Shown piece by piece: positions 19,117 through 51,797 of a stretch of 64,000 nt of DNA. A program made the translations under genes and the position numbers. This stretch comes from Escherichia phage ECML-10, in sequence record OL631479.1; one strand, written 5' to 3'. Positions within the stretch are counted from its first letter, which is position 1. Every line of letters begins with the position of its first letter. The notes beneath the pieces are model-generated. The model was not told where the DNA came from. It did no database searches and saw only the letters and a list, made by a program, of their open reading frames with translations.

Positions 19117-20166
19117 ATGAATTTAACACCTCGCAGCACCATGGTACACGGCATGAAAGAAAAACAGAACGGTTTCGAACCTATGAGTAATAAAATGTTC
19201 GGTATGCCGGGTGGTATTATGGAAACATACAGCTACCCAACACCAGTTGTTGACCACGTTCTTTATATCGACGATTTGGAAGACTTACAAGATCATATGT
19301 CTCGTCTGCAGACGATCCGTATGGCTCAGCCGGAAGAAAGCATTCGGGTGATCATCAATAGCCCTGGGGGTTGCGTGCACATTGCAATGGCTTATCTGCA
19401 GGCATTCCGCGAGTCTCAGGCAAGCGTTGTTGCACATGCTGAAGGGATGTGTTGCTCTGCTGGAACAATCTTATGGCTTGGTTGCAAAGAACGTACTGTG
19501 GCTCCGGACACAGAATTTATGTTCCACTACTATCAAGGTGGCACTTATGGTAACGGTGTGAACATGAATACTCAGGTCAGCTACTGGAAAAAACGTTTTG
19601 AACGCCTGATCGAAAAATACTACGGTGAGGTGCTGACAGAAGATGAGATCGCATCCATCACAGCTGGTGGCGAAGTGTGGTTGGACGGAGAAGAGCTGGC
19701 AGCACGCACTGGAGCTATTATTCTGGATGAAGGCAACATACAACGCATCCAGAACGGACAAAAACCGAAAAAGCTTCTGGCAAAAGGTGATGAGGAAGGC
19801 GTGTTAGGTGAAGCAGGTCTTCCGGAGATTCACCAGTGCACATCTTTAGATGAGTTAGTTCATGCTGTTGAATCTGCAAAAGAGGGTGGTTCGAAAGGTG
19901 ATGTTCACACTGTGTTCCTGAATCTGCAGATGGAAAGTGGCGAGACCGTCCGAATTGCCCTGGGTGAGATTACTTCAGAAGATCTGCAGAGATTCTCTGT
20001 CGTTGAACTTCAGGATATTCTGTCTCAATTGAAGACCACTCTGAACGGCGGTGAAGAGGTTAAGGTGAAAGATAAGACTCGCAAGCGTCTTGTGGACAAT
20101 ATTATTAAAACAGCAAAAGAGCTCAATGAAAAAATCCTGGGTGCAGGAATTGTCGAAGAAGCTTAA
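19117..20166 (+). CDS. ClpP-like serine protease
   Basis: segments INSPGGCVHIAMA and GMCCSAGT resemble the ClpP nucleophile region; 349 aa with C-terminal extension. Confidence 0.6.
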   Translation: MNLTPRSTMVHGMKEKQNGFEPMSNKMFGMPGGIMETYSYPTPVVDHVLYIDDLEDLQDHMSRLQTIRMAQPEESIRVIINSPGGCVHIAMAYLQAFRESQASVVAHAEGMCCSAGTILWLGCKERTVAPDTEFMFHYYQGGTYGNGVNMNTQVSYWKKRFERLIEKYYGEVLTEDEIASITAGGEVWLDGEELAARTGAIILDEGNIQRIQNGQKPKKLLAKGDEEGVLGEAGLPEIHQCTSLDELVHAVESAKEGGSKGDVHTVFLNLQMESGETVRIALGEITSEDLQRFSVVELQDILSQLKTTLNGGEEVKVKDKTRKRLVDNIIKTAKELNEKILGAGIVEEA

Positions 20167-21740: not shown

Positions 21741-21974
21741 ATGAAAGTTAAATTTCTTACAGATTTAGGGTACCCTTCCTTGGTTGACTGCGTTGGTAAA
21801 ATTGTGGAAGCAAAACGACTATCTGCAAACGATAATGTTGTCATGGTTAAGGGAAAAGATTTACTATCTGCAGGTGCAGAGTCTGGCAGGATCTCTCCTG
21901 ACTATACGTATTACCTGTCTTTAAGTAATCTACCAGAACGAGGCGGCAAAGGCCTTGAAGTTGTGGAGGAGTGA
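21741..21974 (+). CDS. small acidic protein, paralog family member
   Basis: MKVKFL... start, K-G-K-D-L-L-S-A-G-A core, C-terminal EVVEE; AGGAGG RBS. Confidence 0.5.
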   Translation: MKVKFLTDLGYPSLVDCVGKIVEAKRLSANDNVVMVKGKDLLSAGAESGRISPDYTYYLSLSNLPERGGKGLEVVEE

Positions 21975-22498
21975 CAGGTATGCTACTGGTTGATTGGAAA
22001 GATTTTTATGGCGATAAAGACCCGAAAGCATTTATATATAAGCCTTGGAGATACTCAGAGAGTCAAATTGCTGCAATAAACCTTACAGCAAAGCGCCGAA
22101 AAATTATTGAAAGTAAATATAGATACGCCCAGCTAGTGGCTGGTGTTTCTCCACAGGTAGAGGGTTTTGTACTTAAACTGTACGAAAAGTTTATGAATTA
22201 CGATTTGTCATTCGTGAAGGTGGGCGAGGATTTATCCCCTGGTAACAACGTAACCCGTTGGAAAGTTTCGTGTGACAAAAAACTCCCGATCAGTATTGAG
22301 GTGTGTCGATACTGGGGGTATCATGATTGTGGATTGTATGACTACCATGATGTGGAAATAAAGCCACGCAATCATCTAAGCGACCCAGAAAAAGATTACT
22401 TGAAGCATGTGATTCTTTCCATGTTTGGAGGGTATATCACAGAGAAAAATAGCGAAGACAGAGTATCCTTTCTTAACAGTTTGAACCAGGAGATGTAA
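21971..22498 (+). CDS. hypothetical protein
   Basis: 175 aa ORF, overlapping stop/start. Confidence 0.45.
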   Translation: MTGMLLVDWKDFYGDKDPKAFIYKPWRYSESQIAAINLTAKRRKIIESKYRYAQLVAGVSPQVEGFVLKLYEKFMNYDLSFVKVGEDLSPGNNVTRWKVSCDKKLPISIEVCRYWGYHDCGLYDYHDVEIKPRNHLSDPEKDYLKHVILSMFGGYITEKNSEDRVSFLNSLNQEM

Positions 22499-22499
22499 T

Positions 22500-22736
22500 A
22501 TGGCCATAGATACTGTGTTGGTTTGGTATTGCGCATTGACCTTTCTGACAATGGTTGTTTTAGCAACTCTTTGCATCATATCTTGTAGAAAAATTAAGTT
22601 TGACGACTTTATAACTATAATCACTGCCGCACCTTTTTGGCCTGTCGTTCTCTTCATTGTTGTTATGTGCTTGGTAGATCACTGTAAAACCGTCAGAAAA
22701 ATGAAGGAGGCAGATAAGAATGGTAACAGTGACTGA
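22500..22736 (+). CDS. small membrane protein
   Basis: two hydrophobic helices (VLVWYCALTFLTMVVLATLCII; FWPVVLFIVVMCLV). Confidence 0.4.
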   Translation: MAIDTVLVWYCALTFLTMVVLATLCIISCRKIKFDDFITIITAAPFWPVVLFIVVMCLVDHCKTVRKMKEADKNGNSD

Positions 22737-22956
22737 AACTGTTTATACTGTTCTTAGGGAGATTGCATTCTATACAGACCTTAGTTCAGTATCTTCATGG
22801 GAAAAGAGTGTGTATTTAAAATGGTGCGTGAAATTAGAGGTGACCTTCTAATGTTTCAAGCCATGTTTATTGAAATGCTCTCCGGAGTATTACTGCTGGT
22901 AGCCATTTTGGGTGGTGCGGCACTAATGTATAATTATCTTGAAAAAGGGGACAGTA

Positions 22957-23142
22957 ATGACAAAAAATAAATCCTTAGAACAGGCTGAAAACCTTCTCCA
23001 CGAGCTGGTAAAGGAGTGGAAAGTTGAATACTCAGATTTTAATGCAAGAGAGGGGGAAGATTATTGGCCTACGGAGCGCTCAGAGGGAGAGTGGTATCAA
23101 GATTTCATAGAATGGTTATATCAGACGTGTGATGAGGGGTGA
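22957..23142 (+). CDS. hypothetical acidic protein
   Basis: ATG after AAAAGGGGA. Confidence 0.4.
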   Translation: MTKNKSLEQAENLLHELVKEWKVEYSDFNAREGEDYWPTERSEGEWYQDFIEWLYQTCDEG

Positions 23143-23145
23143 CGA

Positions 23146-23600
23146 TGTTTGTTAAATATGTAAAAACGTGCCTCAACAACCTTGGTAGAGAGCATTGGTA
23201 CACCTTGCTTGAAAAAGGAGAAATTTTAACAAAATCTGGAAAGATAACTTTGATACCCTTGGATGATAAAGACCCGTCACTACTTGTCATAGATGATTAC
23301 GTTACAGGTGTGTCGTACGAGGTCTCTGTGGAGAGGTTAATACGCAGATCTGGAGGGCCTTATGACCGAAGAGAGTATGTTTTCGATTCTGTTACAGAGA
23401 AGGAGGATCCGTCTCTAATGTTTAGGATGGTAATCAGGGATATGAAATCATCTATAAATAGGATCGTAAAGGACATTAAAGAGCCTTTTAGGGTAAAAGT
23501 TAAGAAGTTTTTTGATTCTAAGATTAACATACTCGCCGTTGTGCTAGGCGTAATTCAACTTCTGTTAATTTTGCACTATCTTGAACTGTTGTTCAAGTAG
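23146..23600 (+). CDS. hypothetical protein with C-terminal TM helix
   Basis: ATG overlapping upstream stop; C-terminal ILAVVLGVIQLLLILHYL. Confidence 0.4.
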
Positions 23601-23660
23601 TGTGCAACAAGGCACAAAGGATGTGCCATGATTAAATAAACTAAGAAAGAGGTAGAGAGA

Positions 23661-24008
23661 ATGCCAAAGATTAAGTCGGTATTAATGTGGGCAGCTGTTG
23701 TAGCTTTTGTAGGATACTGGACTTGGGAAACTGAATTAAAAGATATCGGATATACCAGTCTTGAGAGCAAGGCATGCATTGGCATAACCGATGCATTCAG
23801 GCAAAATGCTATGGATCACGAATGTGTTGATGCAGATATAGATGAGAAACTGTCTAAGGACAAGGATTTTTACCATGGTCATGCCTTGCTTGATAGTGGT
23901 GACACTGTGGAATTCTGGTCGTGGTTCCGTGAAGATGGAACAATAAAGACAGCAGTAAAGATTTCCAACAAAGAGTTAATGCTGTTGCAGCAGAAGGAGG
24001 TGCAATGA
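23661..24008 (+). CDS. hypothetical protein with N-terminal signal/anchor
   Basis: GAGGTAGAGAGA RBS; N-terminal VLMWAAVVAFVGYWTW. Confidence 0.45.
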   Translation: MPKIKSVLMWAAVVAFVGYWTWETELKDIGYTSLESKACIGITDAFRQNAMDHECVDADIDEKLSKDKDFYHGHALLDSGDTVEFWSWFREDGTIKTAVKISNKELMLLQQKEVQ

Positions 24009-24292
24009 TTTGGATATCCTACACTGATGGCACCATGCTGTATACCGCAGGTACTAGGTATGAAGTTCAGGAGGACGATAAAAAATTTATCGTAAAAACA
24101 TTTGACAAGGACGACAACCTTTTGCTAGAATTGACTTACAAGGTTGGAGAGGTATCCGATATCCAATTGGATTGTGGTCATAAAGATAATCCACTCAAAA
24201 AACCTGGAATAGGCAAGGCTTCAGAAGAACGTTTGTCTCGTATTGCAGAAAGCGTTTCTCCCCAAAAATCTAAGAAGAGGAGTAGAAAATGA
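24005..24292 (+). CDS. hypothetical protein
   Basis: 95 aa ORF overlapping upstream stop. Confidence 0.4.
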   Translation: MIWISYTDGTMLYTAGTRYEVQEDDKKFIVKTFDKDDNLLLELTYKVGEVSDIQLDCGHKDNPLKKPGIGKASEERLSRIAESVSPQKSKKRSRK

Positions 24293-24489
24293 GTGACAAA
24301 ATTCTTAAATTTAATACCTACTATGAGAATGATTTGAACGATCTGTATTATATAGTGCGTAGCGAAAACCCGAATGTAGTACTGTTTTGCCGAGAACCTT
24401 TCAAAGGAGAGGAGATTGAATCTACCATGAATGTGGATCAGATTTCACACCTGCTGCTCCTTGGATCATTAAAAGAGGCAGTATTCTAA
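24289..24489 (+). CDS. hypothetical protein
   Basis: 66 aa ORF. Confidence 0.35.
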   Translation: MSDKILKFNTYYENDLNDLYYIVRSENPNVVLFCREPFKGEEIESTMNVDQISHLLLLGSLKEAVF

Positions 24490-24508
24490 ACCAGGATGGA
24501 GGGTTTTT

Positions 24509-24694
24509 ATGAAGCACTATTGTCTGTCTGGCAGAATGGGTGCAGATTGTGATTGGGTTTTCTTAAAACTTGTCAGTATTCGAGAGTTCATTCCAGAGGA
24601 AGAGCAAGAAAGTGAGCTGATGTCATGGATCAACCATTACGGTAACACTTTTCGGCATGTTAAGGTGGAAGAGTTGCCAAGCGAGGCTGATTGA
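24509..24694 (+). CDS. hypothetical protein
   Basis: 61 aa ORF after GGATGGAGGG. Confidence 0.35.
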   Translation: MKHYCLSGRMGADCDWVFLKLVSIREFIPEEEQESELMSWINHYGNTFRHVKVEELPSEAD

Positions 24695-24789
24695 CTATGA
24701 TTGCATCAATATTAACGTTTATGGGTGGCGTGGCATTCGGATTCATTGTTTGCCTGTTTATAGTGATTATGTCTATGCGAGGCTGAATT

Positions 24790-25083
24790 ATGAAACTTTT
24801 TGAGTGGTTTAAAAAGTTTAAATATAAAGCTGTAGCCATCGTGCCGTGGTCCATTCAGTGGGTGGACGATGAGGGATTACCAATTCCAGGTGATAAAGAC
24901 ACGGGATACTGGATCATGCTTGAGAACGGGTTCGGTAAACGGAAATATTCCTGCACGGATACCTCAGGAGCATCTTTTAGGAGAATTCCTGGGTATAAAT
25001 GTATGATTGTGTGGAAGATGTCTGGTGTACCTCCGGCCAATGCACAATATCTTACTACCAATCCAACCACAGAAGAGGACTAG
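24790..25083 (+). CDS. hypothetical protein
   Basis: 97 aa ORF. Confidence 0.4.
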   Translation: MKLFEWFKKFKYKAVAIVPWSIQWVDDEGLPIPGDKDTGYWIMLENGFGKRKYSCTDTSGASFRRIPGYKCMIVWKMSGVPPANAQYLTTNPTTEED

Positions 25084-25085
25084 TA

Positions 25086-25367
25086 ATGAAAAAGATTTGC
25101 GATACAGATGTGGAGTTCAAGGTGTGTAGTAAGGAGACCTATTGGGAAGTGAGACAAAAGGTATATTTGTTTGGACTTATCCCATATTGGTCCAAATTCT
25201 ACTGGGGAGCAGATGAATTAGGGAGATATGCCACCAAAGCTATGGCGCTTATAGGTATAGCTGAATATATTGCTGCTAGGGACAGGGCTGGAAAAACCTG
25301 CTACTACACTGCTGACGAGATTCGTAACAGTGTTTACGTCCCCCAACCACCTGAAGGAGACCGTTGA
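25086..25367 (+). CDS. hypothetical protein
   Basis: ATG at 25086; 93 aa. Confidence 0.4.
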   Translation: MKKICDTDVEFKVCSKETYWEVRQKVYLFGLIPYWSKFYWGADELGRYATKAMALIGIAEYIAARDRAGKTCYYTADEIRNSVYVPQPPEGDR

Positions 25368-25591
25368 TGAAAGTTAAAGTTTTAGATTCAAGCTTCTATA
25401 TTGGTCAGGAGCCTTTAGTGGGTAAAGTGTTTACCGCTGTCCATAACGAAGATTATCCTGACCTTTTAAAAATAAAGGGTGCAGATCTTATTGCCGCTGG
25501 TGCATCTCAGGAATGCTTTGACAGTCAGTGGACCTACAACTTTGCCCTAGGTGAGGATGTAGAGATAGTGGAGGACGATCATGAAGGTTAA
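25364..25591 (+). CDS. small acidic protein, paralog family member
   Basis: MKVKVLDSSFYIGQ..., IKGADLIAAGA, C-terminal EIVEDDHEG. Confidence 0.5.
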   Translation: MMKVKVLDSSFYIGQEPLVGKVFTAVHNEDYPDLLKIKGADLIAAGASQECFDSQWTYNFALGEDVEIVEDDHEG

Positions 25592-25835
25592 AATTCTTGA
25601 TTCTAACGTCTACTTGGGGCAATCCTTCCTGAAAGGAAAGGTCGTACCTGCGGTATACTTTGAAGGGTTGCCGTGGGATGATCCTGTGCGGCAACATCAC
25701 AGTTATGTAGGCCACAACGTGGTGTTTATCTTGGGATCAGACCTGATCACCGCTGGTGCACCTGAATATTATTTCGGGGAAGAGTCCTATTATGCCTTTG
25801 GGGTAGGGTCAGATGCAGATATTGTAGAGCTGTGA
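25581..25835 (+). CDS. small acidic protein, paralog family member
   Basis: MKVKILDSNVYLGQ..., GSDLITAGA; close paralog of 25364-25591. Confidence 0.5.
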   Translation: MKVKILDSNVYLGQSFLKGKVVPAVYFEGLPWDDPVRQHHSYVGHNVVFILGSDLITAGAPEYYFGEESYYAFGVGSDADIVEL

Positions 25836-25847
25836 TGGGTAACCGTT

Positions 25848-26246
25848 GTGAAAAATAAACTGTTCAAAGTTACAATGAAAATTCGCGGAGCTTGGAGCGT
25901 AAAGCAAGGGCGTATCCCAGAATTTGAGAAAGATTTCTACGTAGTCTCCACCTCGGAGGAGGCTGCATGCTGGCAGGCTGGCTATGCCTATGCAAGAACC
26001 TGGTACGAAGGATACCAGACTGGGGGCTATGACGGAGAAATTGTCAGCAAGGGTGTAGAAGAAATTAATGTGTTGACAAGTGAAAAAGTTTTTGTTATAG
26101 TGCATCCAGATTCCAGAGTGAAGCATTACTGGAATGCCAGAACAAAAACTTGGACACCGTTTGCAGACTCTGCTACACCACTTTTAAACCAAAAAGCTCT
26201 TGACTCTGCCCCGAGCTATGGGGTTGTTGAAGAAAAGCTAAACTGA
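25848..26246 (+). CDS. hypothetical protein, paralog of 28057-28452
   Basis: shared segments VIVHPDS..HYWNARTKTWTP versus VMRHPHS..YYWDVLNNEWTP. Confidence 0.5.
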   Translation: MKNKLFKVTMKIRGAWSVKQGRIPEFEKDFYVVSTSEEAACWQAGYAYARTWYEGYQTGGYDGEIVSKGVEEINVLTSEKVFVIVHPDSRVKHYWNARTKTWTPFADSATPLLNQKALDSAPSYGVVEEKLN

Positions 26247-26263
26247 AACAGTGAGGTGTCACT

Positions 26264-26554
26264 ATGATGGATTTAATTCTAAATATTGATAACGCAGAAG
26301 AATTTAAAGACGATGGTGTAACAAGCATGGACAAACCCTGCTCTGCTAAGGTTGACTCAAAATGGACCTACAAGTTTGACGGAGAGATCTTTGCAAATGA
26401 TGAGAAGGTTGTAGATGCTGCAGCCATTTTAAACGCTCTAGGGTACGACCCTGTGAATTCTTTGATCAAGGATCCTGTTGAGTTTGCAGAGTATGTTCGA
26501 AAAATGGCAGATCTTGCTGCGGATATTTTAAAAACTATAGACAACAAGCTGTAA
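26264..26554 (+). CDS. hypothetical acidic protein
   Basis: 96 aa ORF. Confidence 0.4.
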   Translation: MMDLILNIDNAEEFKDDGVTSMDKPCSAKVDSKWTYKFDGEIFANDEKVVDAAAILNALGYDPVNSLIKDPVEFAEYVRKMADLAADILKTIDNKL

Positions 26555-26560
26555 AAACTG

Positions 26561-26589
26561 TTGACACAACGCTTCAGATTTAGTATCAT
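26561..26589 (+). promoter_or_regulatory. sigma70-like promoter followed by leader hairpin
   Basis: TTGACA-17 nt-TATCAT; hairpin AGAGGGTTTGGTTCCCTCT at about 26598-26620 before the RBS. Confidence 0.45.
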
Positions 26590-26636
26590 TGTTTTCAAAG
26601 AGGGTTTGGTTCCCTCTTCTTTAAAAGGAACACGTT

Positions 26637-26954
26637 ATGCAAATTGAAATCACTGGCAACGTAGAAATCACTGAAGGTATGGTGTCTTTCATTTCCCACA
26701 AAATGTCTAAGCTGGAGCGTTTGCACCCCTCTGCCAACTATACACGTGTGAGTGTAAAAGTTGAAAATGATCACCAGGAAGTCATGGCGTTCATTTTTGA
26801 CACTTCCGGAAAAGAAGTTATTGCCAAAGCTAAAGGCAGTGACGCTTACGAGGCAACTGACCGTATGGTAGATGTTGCAGCACGTCAGTTGGCTAAATGC
26901 GGTGGAAAGAAAGGTAAAGGGAAGGGCAAAGTAAAGATTGACTTTGGAGAATGA
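26637..26954 (+). CDS. hypothetical protein with Gly/Lys-rich C-terminus
   Basis: 105 aa; C-terminal GGKKGKGKGKVK. Confidence 0.45.
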   Translation: MQIEITGNVEITEGMVSFISHKMSKLERLHPSANYTRVSVKVENDHQEVMAFIFDTSGKEVIAKAKGSDAYEATDRMVDVAARQLAKCGGKKGKGKGKVKIDFGE

Positions 26955-27091
26955 GGTGCTACAATGGGCGTGATTAAGAAATTAGTACCAAATGTAGAGA
27001 TTGCATGCTTTGAAATTATGTTTGCAATCGCAGTTGTAGTTAATGTGTTAGGTTACGGCTATTAATATCAAATAATTGAGGAGACCTCTAA

Positions 27092-27361
27092 ATGAAAATT
27101 AAATTATTCAAAACTGAGCTGGCAGACAAAAACTGTGGACTGGTTGAAGGCATGATCGTTGAAGCACAACCAGTGGACTACATGAAGGTAGTTCGTGATG
27201 CCTTGGGTGAAGGCTTTGATCTGATGGAGCCAGCTCTGCGAGAAGATGTTATCGAGATGGCTAAAAAGCACACACCTGAAGGCTTGGTGGTGTTTGTTGC
27301 ACCGGGTAACGGAGAAGAGTTGATTGTAACTCCTGATGTGTATGAGATTGTAGAAGAGTAA
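27092..27361 (+). CDS. small acidic protein, paralog family member
   Basis: MKIKLFK..., C-terminal YEIVEE; GAGGAGA RBS. Confidence 0.5.
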   Translation: MKIKLFKTELADKNCGLVEGMIVEAQPVDYMKVVRDALGEGFDLMEPALREDVIEMAKKHTPEGLVVFVAPGNGEELIVTPDVYEIVEE

Positions 27362-27456
27362 TCCTGCTTGGATTAGCATACTTCTCTCAATAAAAAGAAA
27401 AGTTTGTAATTATTTGTGGGAAAGGAATCCCCATCTCTTGCCAGAGGTGATACTAT

Positions 27457-27720
27457 ATGATTGTTTATTTTAAAACTTCAGGTGGATACCCTGATTCTCA
27501 AAGCTTGATCGGAAAAACGTGCACAGCATACTCACCTCTTGATGAGGAGGTAAGCGATATTCTACGAGATATGTATCGGATTGATCCCCAAGAAGCTTTT
27601 GATCAAAACCTTGTATTTGTCAAGGGCTCAGACATGAAGTCTTTGGGAGCATTCCCTGAAGCAGATGATGATGCCGTTTATTCGTTCATGACTCCTTTTG
27701 AAGCTATGGTTGTTGGGTGA
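27457..27720 (+). CDS. small acidic protein, paralog family member
   Basis: VFVKGSDMKSLGA core. Confidence 0.45.
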   Translation: MIVYFKTSGGYPDSQSLIGKTCTAYSPLDEEVSDILRDMYRIDPQEAFDQNLVFVKGSDMKSLGAFPEADDDAVYSFMTPFEAMVVG

Positions 27721-27724
27721 GAAT

Positions 27725-28057
27725 ATGAAAGTACGATTTATTGGTGAAACAATTCCTGTGCATCTCCGGTCGCCTGAAGATTCTGCAGATCTTGCATCTC
27801 AGAAGGCGAGAGGTTATGATAAGAAAGTAATCTCAAACGATGTAGAACTTGAGGCTACTAGTTTACCTGACCCTGCTGCATTCTTTAATCATTATGGATA
27901 CTATTTCAGCAATCTGATGAATATCGGTGAGCTTGTGTTTATTAGTGGTGGAGAAATTGTTAGCAAGCTTGGCGGCGATCCGGATGTCTTTCATGAAACC
28001 TGTCCTTTTGCATTTGTGGTAGGTTCAGATGTGGAAGTTATTGAGGAGGTGCGGTAA
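27725..28057 (+). CDS. small acidic protein, paralog family member
   Basis: MKVRFIGE..., VFISGGEIVSKLGG, C-terminal VEVIEEVR. Confidence 0.5.
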   Translation: MKVRFIGETIPVHLRSPEDSADLASQKARGYDKKVISNDVELEATSLPDPAAFFNHYGYYFSNLMNIGELVFISGGEIVSKLGGDPDVFHETCPFAFVVGSDVEVIEEVR

Positions 28058-28452
28058 TGGTAAGACTATACCGTGTTGAGTATAGCTCAGATACTGTATA
28101 CAACGTAAGAAGCAAAGATCGCAGCGACAGAGTGCAAGAAATGTATGTTCTTGCCGACAGTCCGCTATCTGCAGCGTTCAAGGCAGGGGCTCTTGCATCT
28201 CGTTGGAAATTTGAAGGTGGATCTTTCTATGAAGAAACCCTTGAAGATTCTGTTGTTATTTCTTCTGTAGAGGTTTCAGATGACTACGAAGGGAAAAAGT
28301 TCGTAATGCGGCACCCACACAGCAACATTGCGTACTACTGGGATGTTCTGAACAACGAGTGGACCCCAGATCTTCAGAAGGCTACTGTGCTAACACCGTT
28401 TTTGGCAGATAAGTTTCCACCAGAAGGTAATTTATCCGCACTGTTTCAGTAA
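28057..28452 (+). CDS. hypothetical protein, paralog of 25848-26246
   Basis: see 25848-26246. Confidence 0.5.
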   Translation: MVRLYRVEYSSDTVYNVRSKDRSDRVQEMYVLADSPLSAAFKAGALASRWKFEGGSFYEETLEDSVVISSVEVSDDYEGKKFVMRHPHSNIAYYWDVLNNEWTPDLQKATVLTPFLADKFPPEGNLSALFQ

Positions 28453-28470
28453 TTTTCTTGCACACAGGTG

Positions 28471-28499
28471 TTGACAACGCCAACCCTGTGTGAAATAAT
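28471..28499 (+). promoter_or_regulatory. sigma70-like promoter with flanking 8-bp inverted repeat
   Basis: TTGACA-17 nt-AATAAT; CACACAGG ... CCTGTGTG brackets the -35 box. Confidence 0.45.
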
Positions 28500-28531
28500 A
28501 CCTTCATCTTAACAAGACAGGAGACCGATTG

Positions 28532-28789
28532 ATGAAGATTAAATTGAAAAACCTTGAAACGGCAGAGATTCAGGACGGTGTAGATTTCCGTTCTAAAGAT
28601 GGTGACATCTTAGAGGTAAATCTTCCAACCTACACGCTGATTAAAGGTTTTGGCAACGTTCCGGAAGAGGATATTCCAGAAATTCTTATGATGTTGATTC
28701 TTGACGGAACTGTGTTTGTAGGTGAAGGTGAGAACGCTATTGCAATCCCAAGCCATTTTTATGAAGTAGTCGACGAAGAGGTGCTGTAA
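28532..28789 (+). CDS. small acidic protein, paralog family member
   Basis: MKIKLKNLE..., C-terminal YEVVDEEVL. Confidence 0.5.
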   Translation: MKIKLKNLETAEIQDGVDFRSKDGDILEVNLPTYTLIKGFGNVPEEDIPEILMMLILDGTVFVGEGENAIAIPSHFYEVVDEEVL

Positions 28790-29140
28790 ATGAAAGTAGA
28801 AATTACCGGTTTTGATGTGAATGCGGTTCCGGAAGATATTTTATCTAAATTGCCGGAAGGTTTTGGTAACGGTGTTGTGGTGGATGCTGTTCCTCCTACC
28901 AAAGACATTCTGCTGCAGTATGGTGTAGCAGAGGAAGATGTTGATAAAGTTCTTACAATGATGGCAATCGATCGTGTTGTCGTTGTTAAAGGTCTCGATA
29001 ATTTTGAGAGTGATCCTCTGATTATTCGTGGAGATGACTACAAAATCATCGATAATGAAGGCCAAGAGTTCTATGAGCCTTGTGCAGAAGATATTCTTAA
29101 CTTATTACTGGAAGCAGGCACCGAAGAGGAGGACGAATAA
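28790..29140 (+). CDS. small acidic protein, paralog family member
   Basis: MKVEITGF..., VVVVKGLD, C-terminal TEEEDE; strongly acidic. Confidence 0.5.
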   Translation: MKVEITGFDVNAVPEDILSKLPEGFGNGVVVDAVPPTKDILLQYGVAEEDVDKVLTMMAIDRVVVVKGLDNFESDPLIIRGDDYKIIDNEGQEFYEPCAEDILNLLLEAGTEEEDE

Positions 29141-29469
29141 TGAAGATTGACCCGTTACTGAAGGCTCGTGCAGAAAAAGCGTACACCATTAAGCTGACCA
29201 ACCTGGTTCCTACTTGTCATCCAGATGTAGGTTGGCCCGAAGGTTTGGTGGAGGGAACTGTAACAGCTGCATACCTTCCTAACATCAAATACCTCATGGA
29301 GATCTTAGAGATGGATGAGGAAACTGCAGAACAGTTCCAGTTGGATATGAAACAGAGTGGGACTCTGGTTATTCACGGGTGGTATAATACTAAAGATGCA
29401 GAAGACCCTCTGGTAACTTCTAATCTGGCATATGAAATCTTAGGGCCTTTGAACCTGGAGGAAGACTAA
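29140..29469 (+). CDS. small acidic protein, paralog family member
   Basis: MKIDPLL..., C-terminal LNLEED. Confidence 0.45.
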   Translation: MKIDPLLKARAEKAYTIKLTNLVPTCHPDVGWPEGLVEGTVTAAYLPNIKYLMEILEMDEETAEQFQLDMKQSGTLVIHGWYNTKDAEDPLVTSNLAYEILGPLNLEED

Positions 29470-29756
29470 TGAAAGATCTGGTTAAGATTAAGATTAAAGA
29501 TACCAATGGGGAGCTCAGCCATTTTGGAATTAATGATGGTGACGAGCTGATCGCACACCTGCCTACCAAGGAGGTTGTAAGCAAAGCAGTTGCCGGAGAA
29601 GAAGCTGCAATGCAGGCTGCAGGTGTGGATGAAAACTATGTAGCTATGTGCATGTGCCGAGATCAGGTTGTTCTGTATAAAGCGTATCGACCAAACGGAG
29701 CCACGGAGTGGCTTGTATTCCGACCCGAAGGATATGAAATCTTAGAGGCACTATGA
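29469..29756 (+). CDS. small acidic protein
   Basis: MKDLVKIKIKD..., C-terminal YEILEAL. Confidence 0.45.
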   Translation: MKDLVKIKIKDTNGELSHFGINDGDELIAHLPTKEVVSKAVAGEEAAMQAAGVDENYVAMCMCRDQVVLYKAYRPNGATEWLVFRPEGYEILEAL

Positions 29757-29845
29757 TAAATCTTGCCAAGGTTGCAACGGCACTGTTAATTATTTGCTGG
29801 TCAGTAACCTTAACACTGTGTCTTGTATTTCAGTGAGGTGCTTGT

Positions 29846-30109
29846 ATGAACATCCTGATGTGGGTTATAGCAGTGGCGTTTGTTGCATGTTTTTGCTGCT
29901 GGGTTGCGGTGAGGATTTCTGTAGCTACCCTTCGGAAGTTGGGGTTCTCAGAATGGGATATTAATATCCTTTCTTTTCGCAATGAGACAATATCAGCCGC
30001 CCTGCTTTGTAAGAAATTCAAGTGGGAACCTTGTGAGGTCATGAACTATCTAAGAACGGGAGATATCCCTGAAAGATTTAAAAAAGTTCTTGACGGTAAG
30101 GATAAATGA
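29846..30109 (+). CDS. small membrane protein
   Basis: N-terminal TM helix WVIAVAFVACFCCWVAV. Confidence 0.4.
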   Translation: MNILMWVIAVAFVACFCCWVAVRISVATLRKLGFSEWDINILSFRNETISAALLCKKFKWEPCEVMNYLRTGDIPERFKKVLDGKDK

Positions 30110-30264
30110 TAGTATAGTGACTAACAAGAGGTGAGGAATGACAGATTTTACTGAAGCTTTAATGATGGCCTTGTCTGTTTTAGCGCTATCGGTGTGTTTT
30201 GGGGCGTTATTCACATCTCTGGTTAAAGTTTTACATACAGTATTATTACCCAAGGAGCGCAGTA

Positions 30265-30516
30265 ATGACGAAGATTGACTTGAATGCTGGCGACCATGTT
30301 GTTGTCAAATGCATCGGAGATTATCTTGGATTCACAATCGGCAATACTTACGAGGCGGTAGTGGCGAAGGTTTATCATGATAAAGTCCTCAGTCTTGTAT
30401 TTGACTGCGATGATGATGGGGATGACCGATACGTCTGTGAGGTGCTGGCACGAGACGATAGTGAAGACCAGAAATTCCTGGTTATTGAACTGAACGGTAT
30501 TTTTGTAGAACGTTAA
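30265..30516 (+). CDS. hypothetical acidic protein
   Basis: ATG at 30265; 83 aa. Confidence 0.4.
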   Translation: MTKIDLNAGDHVVVKCIGDYLGFTIGNTYEAVVAKVYHDKVLSLVFDCDDDGDDRYVCEVLARDDSEDQKFLVIELNGIFVER

Positions 30517-30544
30517 TTTAAAACAACATAAGGAGACTCTTACT

Positions 30545-30850
30545 ATGGCTAAATCTAAAGTTGAACTGTTCACCTCTCTTCCTTCTGACACTGCAGAGCG
30601 TGATCGCCTTCGCAAAACAATCGAAGAACTGGTGGAACTCCAACTTCAGATTAAAGATCTGAAAGATGCCATCAAGGATATCATTCTTGTTGAGAAGCAG
30701 GATCATCTGTATTCTCCTAAATTCATCAAATCTCTGGTGGCTACCGAGTTCGATATTCGATATGAGGCTGAAAAACGTCGAGCTAAAATCGAAGAAGAGG
30801 TTGAGCACATGTCCGAGGCAGACATTCTGTTCAAACGCTCTGTAGAATAA
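30545..30850 (+). CDS. hypothetical coiled-coil protein
   Basis: AAGGAGA RBS; heptad-like charged sequence. Confidence 0.45.
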   Translation: MAKSKVELFTSLPSDTAERDRLRKTIEELVELQLQIKDLKDAIKDIILVEKQDHLYSPKFIKSLVATEFDIRYEAEKRRAKIEEEVEHMSEADILFKRSVE

Positions 30851-30856
30851 TGACAA

Positions 30857-30882
30857 AGAGAGGGGCTTGGGCCCCTCTTTTT
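30857..30882 (+). terminator. intrinsic terminator
   Basis: AGAGGGGC-ttgg-GCCCCTCT followed by TTTTT. Confidence 0.7.
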
Positions 30883-30905
30883 ACTATCTATGAAGGAGAT
30901 TTGAG

Positions 30906-31232
30906 ATGGGTATACCGATCACTGTAAAAGAATTGAATGAACGTGATGCAGGTGGTCTATGGCCTGCACGAAAAATACGCTGCGTCTACATGAAAGAGAA
31001 CCTTGAACATCTTGATCAACAGATCAAGGTCGGTGATATTTTCGAGGTCTTCTATTCCAATCGTCGCAACTGGGAAACCATTCAGCCTTCTGGTTTTGTT
31101 CTTGCCAAACTTGACACTGGAGAAGTGATTATCCCAGGGTTGGATATTGTCTTCGAAATTATCCAGGAGTGGGATCCGGATAAGATTAGATATGAAGAGT
31201 TATTCGGTGAAGGTATTATCAAACCTGTGTGA
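30906..31232 (+). CDS. hypothetical protein
   Basis: 108 aa ORF after GAAGGAGA RBS. Confidence 0.45.
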   Translation: MGIPITVKELNERDAGGLWPARKIRCVYMKENLEHLDQQIKVGDIFEVFYSNRRNWETIQPSGFVLAKLDTGEVIIPGLDIVFEIIQEWDPDKIRYEELFGEGIIKPV

Positions 31233-31240
31233 GGTGGATT

Positions 31241-31540
31241 ATGTCTACAAAGACGGCTAAATACTCCTACATGCCATCAACCTCTGCAGAGGTAGATTTT
31301 AGTTTCGATGTGTTTCCACTGTTTGAGGTGGTTCTGGCATACCCAACAATACTATCTACTCCGGAATCACTTGTGCCTGTTAAGTTGCAGAACGCCATGC
31401 ATTCTATGCACTACAACAATAAATGCAGGCACAGATGGTGTCAGGACGAGGAAAAAGATCTGGATAGTTTGAGAGATTTTGACAGTCACCTTTTGACACC
31501 TTTCAGCTACTCCAACCTTGATAAGCCATCATGGGTATAG
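31241..31540 (+). CDS. hypothetical protein
   Basis: ATG after GAGGTGG. Confidence 0.4.
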   Translation: MSTKTAKYSYMPSTSAEVDFSFDVFPLFEVVLAYPTILSTPESLVPVKLQNAMHSMHYNNKCRHRWCQDEEKDLDSLRDFDSHLLTPFSYSNLDKPSWV

Positions 31541-31565
31541 CAAAATATCAAATTTAAGACACCTA

Positions 31566-31592
31566 GGACGCTCTGTGGCGTCCTTTTCTTTA
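31566..31592 (+). terminator. intrinsic terminator
   Basis: GGACGC-tctgtg-GCGTCC followed by TTTTCTTT. Confidence 0.7.
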
Positions 31593-31753
31593 TCTGGTGC
31601 ACGATTGCATACCTTGGACAGATAATCTCCTTACAGAGCGTTTAAGAGCTTCCTACAAACAACTCTCTTTTTCGAGCGTAGCGAGAACGCACGTCCGTTT
31701 TGACCCAAATCCCCATACGCTCGGATTTTAACCAAACCCTCGCGGCGTTTCTA

Positions 31754-31782
31754 TTGACACATTACCGCTCCAGTGATAGTAT
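31754..31782 (+). promoter_or_regulatory. sigma70-like promoter
   Basis: TTGACA-17 nt-TAGTAT. Confidence 0.5.
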
Positions 31783-31900
31783 CCACACATAGTTTGTAGA
31801 ATATGGAATACACAATGAGAACATTGTCCGAAGTTTTAGTAGTGATCCTGATGATCATTACGTCCATAGCGGCTGTTGCCGGAATACTCACGGGTGGAAC

Positions 31901-32113
31901 ATGATCAACACGCATGCACCTGAAGAGACATCCGAAGGAGTGACCATATGTCCATTGTCTGAGCCAGTGAAAGAGGAAAACTTCGATTCTGAAGATTCTC
32001 CATCTTCGCTCCAGGTAGATCCTGAGGCTGATGACCTAACGTGGGAAGACATCGTAGACATCTGGTTCTCCATTATGCCTGAGCACGAAGAGTTCAGAGG
32101 TGGTAGACTATGA
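31901..32113 (+). CDS. hypothetical acidic protein
   Basis: 70 aa ORF; a possible 29-aa hydrophobic peptide ORF lies just upstream (about 31816-31905). Confidence 0.35.
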   Translation: MINTHAPEETSEGVTICPLSEPVKEENFDSEDSPSSLQVDPEADDLTWEDIVDIWFSIMPEHEEFRGGRL

Positions 32114-32234
32114 AGCACCGAGCCCACACAGGTTCCTCATGCTAAAGCATGGCCTGAAGAGGCAAACGTGTATAATTCCAGTGCATTGGAACGTATAAAA
32201 CCCTGTTCACACTCTCATTTCCAGAGGAGATTTC

Positions 32235-32450
32235 ATGAAGATAGAAATATTTGGTGGAGCTGACAACACTCGTGGCCTGATTTACCTTGAATTCGATGAA
32301 ACATACCTGCCAGAGGTGTTAAATATAGACTCTGTTGCTGAGGCTTTGGGAGTAAACCCTAAAGAACTCCACTCTTGTGCTGAGATCGATGGTTGGGAAG
32401 AGACCATGAACATTGATTTCAGTGAAGTAGAGGATGAACCGCTGGACTGA
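32235..32450 (+). CDS. small acidic protein, paralog family member
   Basis: MKIEIFGG..., C-terminal EVEDEPLD; last plus-strand gene. Confidence 0.45.
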   Translation: MKIEIFGGADNTRGLIYLEFDETYLPEVLNIDSVAEALGVNPKELHSCAEIDGWEETMNIDFSEVEDEPLD

Positions 32451-32577
32451 CACACAATTAGCTGCCCGGCTAAAGTGCTGGAAGCACCTATAACACATCT
32501 TTCAACTAAATTTCCCACCACCACAATCACTTACCTCCCACACATGACTGTTTGCTTGTTTAGTGAGCAGTCATGCC

Positions 32578-32605
32578 TTGACATTCTTGCCTATCCTGAT
32601 AAAAT
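32578..32605 (+). promoter_or_regulatory. sigma70-like promoter facing into ORF-poor region
   Basis: TTGACA-16 nt-TAAAAT; no credible ORF downstream. Confidence 0.4.
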
Positions 32606-34030
32606 TAAGTTCTTCTCTTTTCTTTTACCGAGTAATTCGGGTTTTCTGTTCTCTTCGGTTTGAAGGGGTATGGAGATACACCTGAGTGAACAGGGTGAAC
32701 AACCGAACATTTGGCTATGGCATTAGCATGGCGAAGCGGACGGGTGACGAAAGAGGGGCCGGAGGACACCAGTCACTGCCATATGATATATGGGTGATAA
32801 CCTGAAGAGTCTGAATAAGTGTTTAAGTACCAGTCAGAGGAAAAGGTGAATGGTAGCCGAAGGGGGAGGGGGTTTCTTGTATCTTTAATTTGTATATTAT
32901 GTATACATTCGTAAACCAATCTCATCTGAATCTGTTTACCACACAAAGTGGATAGAGACAAATATTACCTATTAAACTTGAATTATTTATAGAAAATACT
33001 ACAACACTACTTAAGTATTTGATTTTACACACAAATCCTGCAGATATTCACCCCCCATATTTAACATACTTGTAACATATTCCATACTCTACCTGACCGA
33101 TCAACTCACCCAACTACATCCTCCATATTTCCCCTGTCTGTACTACCCCTGCCCAGCCGGGAGTCCCGTCATATCTGGCTTTCCAGCAAATATCACACCC
33201 ACAAATATCATTGCCTGAAGAGGGTTTCATCCCATAATACATGCCTTACCTGAAGAGCGCTTCATATACCCCGTAAATTTTTTAATTGACACCCTCCCCG
33301 CCGCCGGAGGGGGTTGGCTTTTCCCACACAGACCCGAAGAGCCAGCCAGAAATATCTGAACAGGTCCAGCTATGCCACGATTTTGACCTGACCTACAGGA
33401 GTGCTTCCCTGTCAGGAGCCGGTAGCGACTGGAGTGCTGCCAGGCGGACGAAATGGGAATACTTCTCATTCTTATAATAATTCTCAAATATCGAGGCAGT
33501 GAGGCAAATTAATAGGTGAGGCCGTTCACACAGTGGCACAACATTTGCAACCTATCTTGTGTGGGGGAATGAGAATACCTATCATTGTGAGAATAGTTAT
33601 CATTACGGGCAATTTAACATAATACCCATTATGCGCACCACTGGCGATCCATACAGGGATTGATAACATGAGTTACTGTTTATGCATATAACAATTATAT
33701 TTCTTACTATTTGTGTGGGATATAGTTAGCAGCCAATAGATTAGATATTGACCTGTAGACTTCTGACCGTCCAGACGTCTAAACGCCCACACAACAAGGC
33801 TTATACATACATCGCTGAATGTAAACAGGGCCGCAAAAATGCTACCATACCAGATTGTAAATTTTTCATACAGCACTTGACAAAGAGGAGAAAAACTTGT
33901 CTGACACTTTAGACACAATAGTGACATAATGGTGACACACTGGGCATACTCAACACACTGGATACAATAACAGTTGTTACTATTGCATGCTTCACTGTTC
34001 ACGTATAGATTGTTTACACAGAGATGATAA

Positions 34031-34311
34031 GCCATGCCATTCGTTTGCATGACAATAATTAACTTGTTTACAATCTTTCACTGGCTATGCCAGGTGACCT
34101 TTGGTCACCCCTTCGGGTGTTTCTATGACATAATATAAAAGCAGGGCAACTATTAGAAGATCTATAGTTGCCTTGCTTGTTATGTCACGATTAACTAAAT
34201 ACAAGGCAACTATGATCTGATTAATAGTTTGCAGACAAACTATCACGGGGGTGATGGTTACTGCTTTTATATTATGTCGCGACTCCGTCGCGCCATGCCA
34301 TTCGTTTGCAT
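34031..34311. repeat. composite palindrome/iteron locus bounded by 20-bp direct repeats
   Basis: direct repeats GCCATGCCATTCGTTTGCAT at 34031 and 34292; perfect 18-bp inverted repeat GACATAATATAAAAGCAG (34127) / CTGCTTTTATATTATGTC (34261); GGCAACTAT / ATAGTTGCC palindrome at 34145-34172 with more copies at 34205 and 34310; GGTGACC..GGTCACC at 34093. Confidence 0.7.
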
Positions 34312-34924
34312 AGTTGCCTTATTGTTACGAATAAAACAATTGCATTGTTAATGATTTCTTATCTTTCTCTTAGTCATCTAATGATTCCAGTCAGTATAGT
34401 AATGTACAGTAAACATTAGACGACTAAAGATTTCTCTGTTTATTATAACTCACCGTTATAATTTCGAGCTGTTTACGAAAAATGTTGACATCCTAGCCGA
34501 TTTATGTTATGCAGTTTACACGAATAATTATTTTATGCAGGTATTGACTATTCCGTTATTCTATGGTTGGAATAAATACTTAGCAGGCTATAGACTGGTG
34601 AGCGTACGTAAATTCTGAGATCTGGCGGCTATAGTTATACTCGATTTTTCACGTAGAACACGCTTTTGTGGTTATGTAAGTGCATGAATTATAAGAATTT
34701 TTATTTGTTGACAAGATATTGAAGATATGCATCAGGTTAAAATTTATGCAATAGCGGCATTACGTGCAATTTTGGAAGGAAAAGCGTGTAAAAATGGCCC
34801 TGCTACCACACAATGAAAGGTTATGCAATAGCTATTTTACATGTATATTTGTACAGTGTGTGGGATTGATGGCTCGTCAATTATTCCACTTGCCAGGTAG
34901 GGCCGTTTGTGGTAGGAAAAGAGA

Positions 34925-37979: not shown

Positions 37980-38279
37980 CTATACAGAGAAAACATCGTT
38001 CACAATAGCGATCACAATGCCGCCCACCTTGTCACGGTCAACAATGCACAAATCACCATAGATCATGTGGTAGTCTGGATGATCTTTCACGGAATAGTCA
38101 ATGAGCGTTTTCTTGTCGTCCAGCTTTGTAACTTCCATTCTCATAACGATATGAGAATCATCAAAGGCATTATTCCGAAAAGTCATAGCCTGACCACCAT
38201 GGCACCCAGTGATCTCCACTTCCACACCGTCTACGATCTGACCATTAAAGAAATAAAGATTATTAGCCAGGATAAACAT
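37980..38279 (-). CDS. hypothetical protein
   Basis: ATG after AAGGAGTG RBS. Confidence 0.45.
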   Translation of the reverse strand: MFILANNLYFFNGQIVDGVEVEITGCHGGQAMTFRNNAFDDSHIVMRMEVTKLDDKKTLIDYSVKDHPDYHMIYGDLCIVDRDKVGGIVIAIVNDVFSV

Positions 38280-38324
38280 GTTTATCACTCCTTGTTAACT
38301 GCGTGTTATTTTTACCACGATTAA

Positions 38325-38376
38325 AATTTACTTTACTGATGGCCCTGGCGTCAAGGCCATCTAAAAATAAATTTAC
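38325..38376. repeat. conserved ~50-bp intergenic stem-loop element, copy 1
   Basis: TTTACTTTACTGATGGCCCTGGCGTCAAGGCCATCTAAAAATAAATTTAC; 7-bp stem GATGGCC/GGCCATC. Confidence 0.7.
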
Positions 38377-41563: not shown

Positions 41564-41604
41564 GGTTTTAACTCCTATGCATTAGTTCAGTGTTAACAGT
41601 ATAA

Positions 41605-51734: not shown

Positions 51735-51797
51735 TACTGTGGTCCCCTTTCGTTTGGATAGGGCCATTATAATAGGTCCTATCACTGTTGTCAAGTA

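What the first reader, a model, noticed from the sequence alone, without database searches (positions are those of the whole stretch)
21741..32450. Tandem array of small, strongly acidic paralogous proteins (at least 11 members)
Eleven or more plus-strand genes of roughly 70-120 aa share a layout: an MK(V/I)K(F/V/I)L-type start, a Gly-rich K-G-x-D-L-x-x-A-G-A core and an acidic C-terminus ending in patterns like EVVEE, IVEDD, YEIVEE or TEEEDE. Such expansion of small acidic proteins in one early-gene block recalls DNA-mimic anti-restriction proteins (Ocr-like), but the sequences match nothing I recognise. The array could be a diversified anti-defence or host-takeover family.
Basis: partly seen in the sequence, partly recalled or inferred. 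Interest (0 to 1): 0.8.

Follow-up and report, generated by a model that had tools for sequence, protein, structure and literature searches.

The report
Ten small SH3-like phage proteins
An rV5-like E. coli phage carries ten conserved genes for small, mildly acidic proteins in two families of five, both predicted to fold like SH3 domains; they are probably early binding proteins of unknown target, not the Ocr-like DNA mimics first suggested.

Summary
The window is a Vequintavirus (rV5-like) phage genome, 98% identical to Escherichia phage JES2013. Ten of the eleven flagged genes are real, conserved and paralogous, but they form two sequence families, not one.

Family A (five genes) carries the G-x-D-L-x-x-A-G-A motif. 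Family B (five genes) lacks it. The eleventh gene (32235-32450) is not supported as a member. Sequence profiles do not link A and B.

AlphaFold2 models of one member of each family (pLDDT 91 and 89) are both SH3-like five-stranded barrels. Each starts at Met1 and ends in an E-[IV]-[IV]-E-E strand. The main elaboration in both sits in the loop between strands 2 and 3.

Family A belongs to a wider uncharacterised phage family (phrog_5009 and relatives). Elsewhere it occurs as one or two copies among early, replication or accessory genes of unrelated phages and prophages.

All ten genes are under purifying selection, encode soluble proteins and sit behind host-type promoters.

Nothing supports an Ocr-like anti-restriction role. 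The fold is wrong, the charge is moderate in nine of ten, and published phenotyping finds these phages exceptionally sensitive to restriction.

Most likely they are non-enzymatic early binding modules for host takeover or counter-defence. Their targets are unknown. Modest interest.

The parts
21741..21974 (+). Family A member 1 (77 aa; rV5 ORF127). Least acidic member: net charge -1, pI 5.4.
   Evidence: phrog_5009 E = 8.5e-36. Leave-one-out HMM E = 4.9e-9. dN/dS 0.05.
25367..25591 (+). Family A member 2 (74 aa; rV5 ORF140). Minimal form of the fold; this is the modelled protein.
25581..25835 (+). Family A member 3 (84 aa; rV5 ORF141). Its start overlaps the end of member 2. Has an insertion in the loop between strands 2 and 3.
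   Evidence: 41% identical to member 2, E = 7e-16. phrog_5009 E = 3e-32. Leave-one-out E = 8.4e-16.
27457..27720 (+). Family A member 4 (87 aa; rV5 ORF147). Has a roughly 20-residue insertion in the loop between strands 2 and 3.
   Evidence: phrog_13920, plus a weak phrog_5009 hit at 1.2e-4. Leave-one-out E = 3.7e-6. dN/dS 0.04.
27725..28057 (+). Family A member 5 (110 aa; rV5 ORF148). Has insertions both after strand 1 and in the loop between strands 2 and 3.
   Evidence: phrog_13661. Leave-one-out E = 2e-6. Alignment. dN/dS 0.11.
27092..27361 (+). Family B member 1 (89 aa; rV5 ORF146). Ends in YEIVEE with no gene immediately downstream.
   Evidence: phrog_11868. Leave-one-out E = 1e-3, best decoy 2.9. 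dN/dS 0.06.
28532..28789 (+). Family B member 2 (85 aa; rV5 ORF150). First gene of the four-gene B block; this is the modelled protein.
28790..29140 (+). Family B member 3 (116 aa; rV5 ORF151). The only strongly acidic member: net charge -21, 25% D+E. Has a C-terminal extension ending in TEEEDE.
   Evidence: BLAST to member 2 E = 2e-5. Leave-one-out E = 2e-8. Charge. The terminal GAGGAGGA is the Shine-Dalgarno sequence of the next gene.
29140..29469 (+). Family B member 4 (109 aa; rV5 ORF152).
   Evidence: Leave-one-out E = 1.2e-4. dN/dS 0.05. The rV5 orthologue is listed as 'structural protein (MS evidence)' on two weak, singly charged, non-tryptic peptides.
29469..29756 (+). Family B member 5 (95 aa). 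Split into ORF153 and ORF154 in the rV5 record.
   Evidence: Leave-one-out E = 3.5e-4. dN/dS 0.06. Split annotation seen.
32235..32450 (+). The flagged eleventh gene (71 aa, net charge -16). Not supported as a member of either family.
   Evidence: Best HMM E = 3.7. hhalign probability 9.6% against B and 1.1% against A, covering only MKIEIF. It has its own PHROG, phrog_12108.
28471..28499 (+). Sigma-70-type promoter ahead of the four-gene B block (rV5 P150).
   Evidence: TTGACA-17-AATAAT with an extended -10 TG, 11 of 12 matches. Annotated as promoter P150 in the rV5 record.
26561..26589 (+). Sigma-70-type promoter ahead of the RaiA/HPF gene and the family genes downstream (rV5 P144).
   Evidence: TTGACA-17-TATCAT, 11 of 12 matches. 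Annotated as P144 in rV5.

Best explanation
Shown. The block belongs to an rV5-like lytic E. coli phage. It holds ten real, conserved genes for small soluble proteins in two sequence families of five.

Predicted. One modelled member of each family folds as an SH3-like five-stranded beta-barrel. The first strand is the MK[VI]K N-terminus and the last strand is [YF/x]-E-[IV]-[IV]-E-E.
- Family A adds a conserved short helix (G-x-[DE]-L-x-x-A-G-A) after strand 3. Its loop between strands 2 and 3 carries insertions of 0 to about 45 residues.
- Family B has a two-helix insertion in that same loop and a short connection after strand 3.

Inferred. The proteins have no conserved catalytic-looking residues, no membrane segments and an acidic surface. 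They lie behind host-type promoters in the early/DNA-metabolism transcription unit. They therefore most likely act stoichiometrically as binding modules. Each paralogue would use its own loop insertion, next to the usual SH3 ligand-binding face, to hold a different host (or phage) macromolecule during takeover or counter-defence.

The array probably grew by local duplication. An A-A-C three-gene unit occurs twice and four B genes are contiguous. Each copy is now held by purifying selection. They are not Ocr-type anti-restriction proteins.
For: - Identity of the phage.
- Paralogy.
- Real genes: dN/dS 0.04-0.22 against the most divergent genus member; Shine-Dalgarno sequences present and no transmembrane segments; the block is kept in 114 of 124 related genomes.
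- Conserved positions are mostly hydrophobic, Gly or aromatic, plus one helix acid and the last-strand Glu residues.
- Variable insertions map to the loop between strands 2 and 3.
- Promoters. The rV5 paper places genes 82-163 in one unit with the replication genes (PMC3606486).
- Mobility and accessory context of family A: 44 cluster representatives at E <= 1e-3. Copies lie between primase and helicase genes, next to RecT/NinX, or between the antiterminator and holin in unrelated phages and prophages. Two other phages also carry two copies.
Against: - No target, partner or phenotype is known for any member or homologue. Every database name is 'hypothetical' and every BFVD neighbour is uncharacterised.
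- A and B may not be homologous (hhalign probability 23%).
- Strong purifying selection and near-universal retention within the genus are not the usual signature of arms-race anti-defence genes.
- Expression timing is inferred from promoters and gene order. I found no transcriptome.
- One B member has weak virion mass-spectrometry evidence.
Confidence: 0.45

Rival explanations
1. Ocr-like anti-restriction. The proteins are DNA mimics that titrate type I or other restriction enzymes at the start of infection.
For: The proteins are acidic (pI 4.05-5.4) and lie behind host-type promoters. One member, 28790, reaches 25% D+E and net charge -21.
Against: - No sequence match to Ocr, ArdA or any Pfam family.
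- The predicted beta-barrel is unlike Ocr's elongated helical dimer.
- Nine of ten members have only 13-21% D+E. The wider family has a median net charge of -6.
- BASEL phenotyping found Vequintavirinae exceptionally susceptible to restriction-modification systems, with no effective protection (PMC8594841). Phages of that collection carry this block.
Confidence: 0.06
2. SH3-fold decoys of DNA-binding proteins other than classical restriction enzymes. They would work like the CarS antirepressor or like Ugi: an acidic face occupies the DNA-binding site of a host regulator, nucleoid protein, repair enzyme or defence nuclease.
For: There is precedent for an SH3-topology DNA mimic, CarS (PMC2926617). 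The family is acidic throughout. Glu residues are conserved on the last strand, as is an acid in the helix (94% D/E at position 40). The genes sit in an early accessory context.
Confidence: 0.12
3. Phage-internal role. The proteins are assembly chaperones, scaffolds or minor virion/ejected proteins rather than host-directed factors.
For: rV5 ORF152, the orthologue of 29140-29469, is listed as 'structural protein (MS evidence)'. Strong purifying selection and genus-wide retention fit core functions.
Against: - The mass-spectrometry evidence is two singly charged, non-tryptic peptides with XCorr 1.8-1.9.
- The other nine members are not flagged as structural in the rV5 gene table.
- The genes lie in the replication/nucleotide-metabolism unit, far from the morphogenesis genes.
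- Family A homologues sit in replication, recombination or nin-type regions of unrelated phages whose virions differ.
Confidence: 0.12
4. Auxiliary lysis or cell-wall-binding SH3 proteins, as proposed for the standalone SH3 (DUF7244) next to the lysis cassette of T1-like phages.
For: SH3-like fold. A DUF7244 protein appears among the weak BFVD neighbours (E = 0.14). In mEp021-like prophages the family A gene lies about 0.9 kb upstream of the holin. The T1 proposal is in PMC13164509.
Against: No member matches DUF7244 or any SH3b Pfam model. There is no signal peptide or membrane anchor to reach the periplasm. In this window the genes are not next to lysis genes: the rV5 lysin is ORF89, about 20 kb away.
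Confidence: 0.04

Closest known systems
phrog_5009 and relatives (phrog_13367, 7345, 15322): uncharacterised small phage proteins
   Same: Three window genes match phrog_5009 at E = 1e-32 to 1e-39 and a fourth matches weakly. Distant homologues found by the full HMMER search match the same PHROGs. They share the consensus MKVKLL..GGY.G...VGKVV.A...I.G.DLI.AGA....F.....Y.F..G.E.EIVEE.
   Different: The PHROG carries no function. Members 27457 and 27725 and all of family B are filed in seven other PHROGs, so the ten-gene grouping is not captured there. Elsewhere the family is present in one or two copies; here there are five.
SH3-like small beta-barrel domains (SH3, KOW/Spt5, PsaE)
CarS antirepressor of Myxococcus xanthus (SH3-topology DNA mimic; PMC2926617)
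   Same: A small, acidic, standalone SH3-topology protein that acts purely by binding. It shows that this fold can mimic DNA.
Ocr (T7 gp0.3) and other phage DNA-mimic anti-restriction proteins
   Same: Small, acidic, encoded among early genes.
   Different: Ocr is an all-helical elongated dimer with much higher charge density (from my own knowledge of the Ocr structure). Here the fold is a beta-barrel, the charge is moderate, and the phages carrying these genes are highly sensitive to restriction.
DUF7244 standalone SH3 of T1-like phages (PMC13164509)
   Same: A standalone SH3-fold protein of unknown function in coliphages, found by structure prediction.
   Different: It is a different sequence family, with no Pfam match in 36 members scanned. 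DUF7244 is tied to the lysis cassette, whereas these genes sit in the early block.

Membership tests
Ocr / DNA-mimic anti-restriction proteins | Sequence membership (Pfam Ocr or ArdA models) | tested here: not met
   No Pfam family at E <= 1 for eight members. The other two had only weak, unrelated hits below threshold.
Ocr / DNA-mimic anti-restriction proteins | Elongated all-helical dimer that mimics bent B-DNA | tested here: not met
   The AF2 models are five-stranded beta-barrels with SH3, KOW and PsaE neighbours. This rests on predicted structures of two representatives.
Ocr / DNA-mimic anti-restriction proteins | Very high density of surface carboxylates | tested here: inconclusive
   D+E is 13-21% in nine of ten members and 25% in 28790. 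The wider family has a median of 16.5% and net charge -6.
Ocr / DNA-mimic anti-restriction proteins | Protects the phage from restriction | not testable with these tools
   Indirect evidence is contrary. Vequintavirinae are 'exceptionally susceptible' to restriction-modification systems (PMC8594841).
SH3-like small beta-barrel fold | Five antiparallel strands forming a barrel, with long loops after strand 1 and strand 2 and a hairpin after strand 3 | tested here: met
SH3-like small beta-barrel fold | Match to a curated SH3-clan sequence family (SH3_1, SH3b, KOW, DUF7244) | tested here: not met
   None in the ten window proteins or in 36 family A members.
phrog_5009 | Significant full-length HMM match | tested here: met
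   Met for 21741, 25367 and 25581 (E = 1e-32 to 1e-39). Weak for 27457 (1.2e-4). Not met for 27725 or any family B gene.
One superfamily uniting A and B | Significant profile-profile or HMM similarity across the domain | tested here: inconclusive
   hhalign P = 9e-4, probability 23%, N-terminal 27 columns only. There were no cross-hits with HMMs and no bridging member. The models do share a fold, the N- and C-terminal strand motifs and the site of insertion.
CarS-type SH3 DNA mimic | Acidic face that binds the DNA-recognition helix of a target | not testable with these tools
   Only the shared topology is shown. The precedent is taken from PMC2926617.
Virion structural protein | Reproducible detection in purified virions | tested here: inconclusive
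   Only rV5 ORF152 is listed, on two weak peptides with 12.8% coverage. None of the other nine is flagged as structural in the rV5 gene table.

The most novel reading that the evidence does not exclude
The ten proteins are a diversified set of SH3-fold decoys. Each paralogue would use a different loop insertion on a common acidic barrel to neutralise a different host DNA-binding or immune protein. On this reading, family A is a widespread, so far unrecognised class of phage counter-defence or takeover modules, with Vequintavirus holding the largest known expansion.
Probability: 0.15. Interest if true: 0.7.

Novelty: new member of a known kind. Interest (0 to 1): 0.35.

Why it matters
rV5-like phages are among the most often isolated coliphages and are used in therapy and biocontrol cocktails, yet about a third of the genome is small unannotated genes. 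This work shows that 10 of the 37 genes in this block reduce to two predicted SH3-like families, and that one of them recurs across unrelated phages and prophages. That gives a compact, testable set for partner-finding experiments. If the proteins turn out to be target-specific inhibitors, the loop-insertion series would be a natural example of specificity diversification on a minimal scaffold. If they do not, the result still removes a false Ocr-like lead.

Tried and rejected
1. Linking families A and B by sequence. HMM searches in both directions, a broader family A HMM, hhalign with shallow and deep alignments, and tests of insertion-bearing A members as bridges all stayed non-significant.
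2. Membership of 32235-32450. Rejected.
3. Pfam scans of the ten window proteins, ten distant homologues and all 36 members of the family A alignment gave no consistent family. A single weak DUF7210 hit (E = 0.07, 1 of 36) was discarded.
4. A profile search of PDB sequences gave only local matches of the D-L-I-x-A-G-A stretch to designed repeat proteins (E = 0.01 to 9.6). I read this as a short-motif resemblance, not homology. The few very long or repeat-containing hits in the representative search (P0108, P0139, P0115, P0144) matched only short stretches of the profile and were left out without inspection.
5. Family members in the syntenic regions of a Seunavirus and a Mydovirus: none found.
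6. A BFVD fold search for an annotated viral neighbour returned only uncharacterised proteins.
7. Literature searches for paralogue descriptions, transcriptomes or functional screens in Vequintavirus found nothing specific.
8. An Rfam scan of the adjacent non-coding region found nothing.
9. Direct superposition of the two models and surface electrostatics could not be done, because model coordinates are not exposed to the scripting tool.


Full report
**Source and setting.** The 12 kb around the finding is 98.3% identical to Escherichia phage JES2013 and 92-96% identical to more than 100 other rV5-like phages (genus Vequintavirus). In 114 of 124 matching records the match covers at least 80% of the stretch. 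In JES2013 and rV5 every flagged gene is annotated 'hypothetical protein'. The block lies downstream of the PhoH-like, ClpP-like and DNA-methyltransferase genes. It sits at the end of the long + strand unit that also holds the nucleotide-metabolism genes. It ends at a roughly 2.5 kb ORF-free stretch where the coding strand and GC skew turn. The rV5 genome paper describes '88 mainly small ORFs' here and assigns genes 82-163 to one transcription unit. It does not mention paralogues (PMC3606486).

- Family A: 21741, 25367, 25581, 27457, 27725.
- Family B: 27092, 28532, 28790, 29140, 29469.
- An unrelated pair: 25848 and 28057 (27% identity, E = 4e-11; both phrog_7379).

I tested each family by leave-one-out. 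An HMM was built from four members plus their orthologues and searched against all 910 six-frame ORFs of the window. The omitted member was always the best non-training hit.
- Family A: E = 3e-19 to 4e-6. Best decoy E = 0.038 to 1.2.
- Family B: E = 2e-8 to 1.5e-3. Best decoy E = 0.87 to 2.9.

So ten genes are paralogous, in two families of five. PHROGs files three A members together (phrog_5009) and the other seven genes in seven separate families, all of unknown function. No Pfam family matches.

**Are they real genes?** Compared with the most divergent genus member available (EcoIv14a_Aya), nine of the ten give dN/dS of 0.04-0.22. The tenth aligns with gaps and was not scored. All have GGAG-type ribosome-binding sites 5-9 nt upstream and no hydrophobic segment long enough for a membrane helix. 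They are therefore conserved, soluble, cytoplasmic proteins.

**How acidic?** pI values run from 4.05 to 5.4. D+E is 13-21% and net charge -1 to -12 in nine of ten. Only 28790 is extreme, at 25% and -21. Twelve of the 27 non-family genes in the block also have pI below 5, so acidity does not set the families apart.

Part of the 'acidic C-terminus' has a mundane cause. In five members the last codons (for example GAG GAG GAC GAA in 28790, and GTG GAG GAC in 25367) are also the Shine-Dalgarno sequence of the tightly abutting next gene. The E-[IV]-[IV]-E-E strand itself is a protein feature, though. It is conserved in distant homologues (75% acidic at three positions), and 27092 keeps it with no gene close behind.

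**Structure.** AlphaFold2 with family alignments gave confident models.
- 25367 (family A): pLDDT 91.1, pTM 0.79. Strands at 2-5, 21-26, 33-37, 56-61 and 65-69, helix at 38-43.
- 28532 (family B): pLDDT 88.8, pTM 0.76. Strands at 2-5, 26-30, 61-63, 70-72 and 77-80, helices at 34-38 and 45-57.

They differ in their additions. Family A has the conserved helix motif and a long loop after strand 3, with insertions of 0 to about 45 residues in the loop between strands 2 and 3. Family B has a two-helix insertion in that same loop and a short hairpin after strand 3.

Sequence does not establish whether A and B share ancestry. hhalign gives P = 9e-4 and probability 23% over the first two strands only. 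HMMs give no cross-hits. The insertion-bearing A members do not act as bridges. I rate common origin as roughly even odds.

**Wider distribution.** The word-indexed searches returned almost only orthologues from rV5-like genomes. They also returned natural fusions between neighbouring paralogues: P0011 and P0017 join the N-terminus of 25367 to the C-terminus of 25581.

The full HMMER scan of 1.84 billion cluster representatives with the family A profile found 44 representatives at E <= 1e-3. Most are 63-87 aa proteins with a clear shared consensus. They hit the same unannotated PHROGs.

Their genomic contexts are early or accessory regions of unrelated phages.
- Between an antiterminator gene and the holin in mEp021-like E. 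coli prophages.
- Between primase and AAA_24/helicase genes in a 42 kb phage contig, which also carries a second copy.
- Next to RecT/YqaJ, NinX and a methyltransferase gene, near the integrase, in a Morganella prophage.
- In a run of small genes with an adjacent second copy in a 52 kb phage contig.

Syntenic regions of a Seunavirus and a Mydovirus lack both families. Family B was found only in Vequintavirus. So family A is a mobile, widespread phage gene that has expanded to five copies here, and B is a genus-restricted set with the same predicted fold.

**Function.** No member or homologue has a name, a Pfam domain, a solved relative or an annotated structural neighbour among viral models. 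Conserved positions are mainly hydrophobic, aromatic or glycine, plus one acidic residue in the helix and the Glu residues of the last strand. Nothing suggests catalysis.

Strong sigma-70-type promoters precede the RaiA gene and the B block (11 of 12 matches). They are annotated as P144 and P150 in rV5. This fits transcription by unmodified host polymerase, that is, early. I found no transcriptome to confirm it.

My best reading is that these are stoichiometric binding modules for host takeover or counter-defence, with paralogue-specific loop insertions conferring target specificity. This step is inference, and I give it 0.45.

**Against the Ocr-like idea.** The fold is wrong and the charge density is moderate. 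[quoted passage not shown] BASEL phages such as DrSchubert, MaxBurger and HeinrichReichert carry this block.

DNA mimicry in a broader sense is not excluded. The CarS antirepressor shows that an SH3-topology protein can mimic operator DNA (PMC2926617).

A structural role rests only on two weak peptides for rV5 ORF152. A lysis-auxiliary role like that proposed for the DUF7244 SH3 of T1-like phages (PMC13164509) does not fit the lack of an export signal or the genomic position.

**Verdict.** The specific Ocr analogy is not supported. The general idea of a diversified accessory family is plausible but untested. These genes are already deposited in more than 120 genomes as hypothetical proteins, and their fold is a common one. 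This is a new, uncharacterised member set of a known kind of protein, of modest interest until a partner or phenotype is found.

Noticed in passing
window 32450-34900: About 2.5 kb without convincing ORFs at the point where the coding strand and GC skew turn. It contains a cluster of GGCAACTAT/ATAGTTGCC direct and inverted repeats at 34127-34327 and an exact 20-nt repeat at 34031 and 34292. This could be an origin or a regulatory region. The rV5 paper also notes an ORF-free stretch here. No Rfam family matched.
   Followed up: partly
window 26637-26954 (+): A phage-encoded RaiA/HPF-like ribosome hibernation factor sits in the middle of the array behind its own strong promoter (phrog_8990 E = 2e-6; annotated RaiA in JES2013 and rV5).
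   Followed up: no
window 25367-26246 and 27457-28452 (+): A third paralogue pair (25848-26246 and 28057-28452; 27% identity, both phrog_7379) follows each A-A gene pair. The unit A-A-C therefore occurs twice, which suggests an old segmental duplication. The best cross-pair among the A genes is 25581 with 27725 (E = 5e-5).
   Followed up: partly
window 25560-25591, 28765-28789, 29115-29140, 29445-29469, 21950-21974: The acidic C-terminal codons of several members (GAG GAG GAC, GAA GAG GTG, CTG GAG GAA) double as the Shine-Dalgarno sequence of the abutting downstream gene. This partly explains the 'EE/ED' tails.
   Followed up: yes
proteins P0011, P0017, P0026 (metagenome relatives of window 25367-25835): Natural chimeras. 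P0011 and P0017 join the N-terminus of 25367 to the C-terminus of 25581, as a deletion by recombination between the tandem paralogues would. P0026 joins a prophage-type N-terminus to the 25367 C-terminus.
   Followed up: partly
L004-L007 (mEp021-like E. coli prophages) versus window 21741-21974 and 59010-59816: Temperate mEp021-like phages share two genes with this lytic phage: a family A homologue (49-51% identity) between the antiterminator gene and the holin, and a 264-aa protein (about 55% identity to window 59010-59816, minus strand).
   Followed up: partly
GenBank records MG0656xx (search results): Eighteen records named 'Campylobacter phage', with host Campylobacter jejuni, are about 95% identical to E. 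coli rV5-like phages across this block. The host assignment is probably wrong or the samples were contaminated.
   Followed up: no
L012 8505-8775 (rV5 ORF153/154) versus window 29469-29756: The rV5 reference record splits the orthologue of family B member 5 into two overlapping ORFs. This is either a frameshift or a sequencing error in rV5. The gene is intact in this window and in phage Aya.
   Followed up: no
window 51477-52073 (-), and about 38270-38620 versus 41585-41790: Further local duplications elsewhere in the window: an adjacent paralogue pair on the minus strand (29% identity, E = 2e-7) and a short repeated segment about 3.3 kb apart.
   Followed up: no
window 19117-20166 (+): The ClpP-like protease upstream of the block has relatives in Seunavirus, Mydovirus, phi92-like phages and Vibrio phage ICP1 (30-45% identity). 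It served as a synteny anchor. The small-gene block downstream of it differs entirely between these genera.
   Followed up: partly
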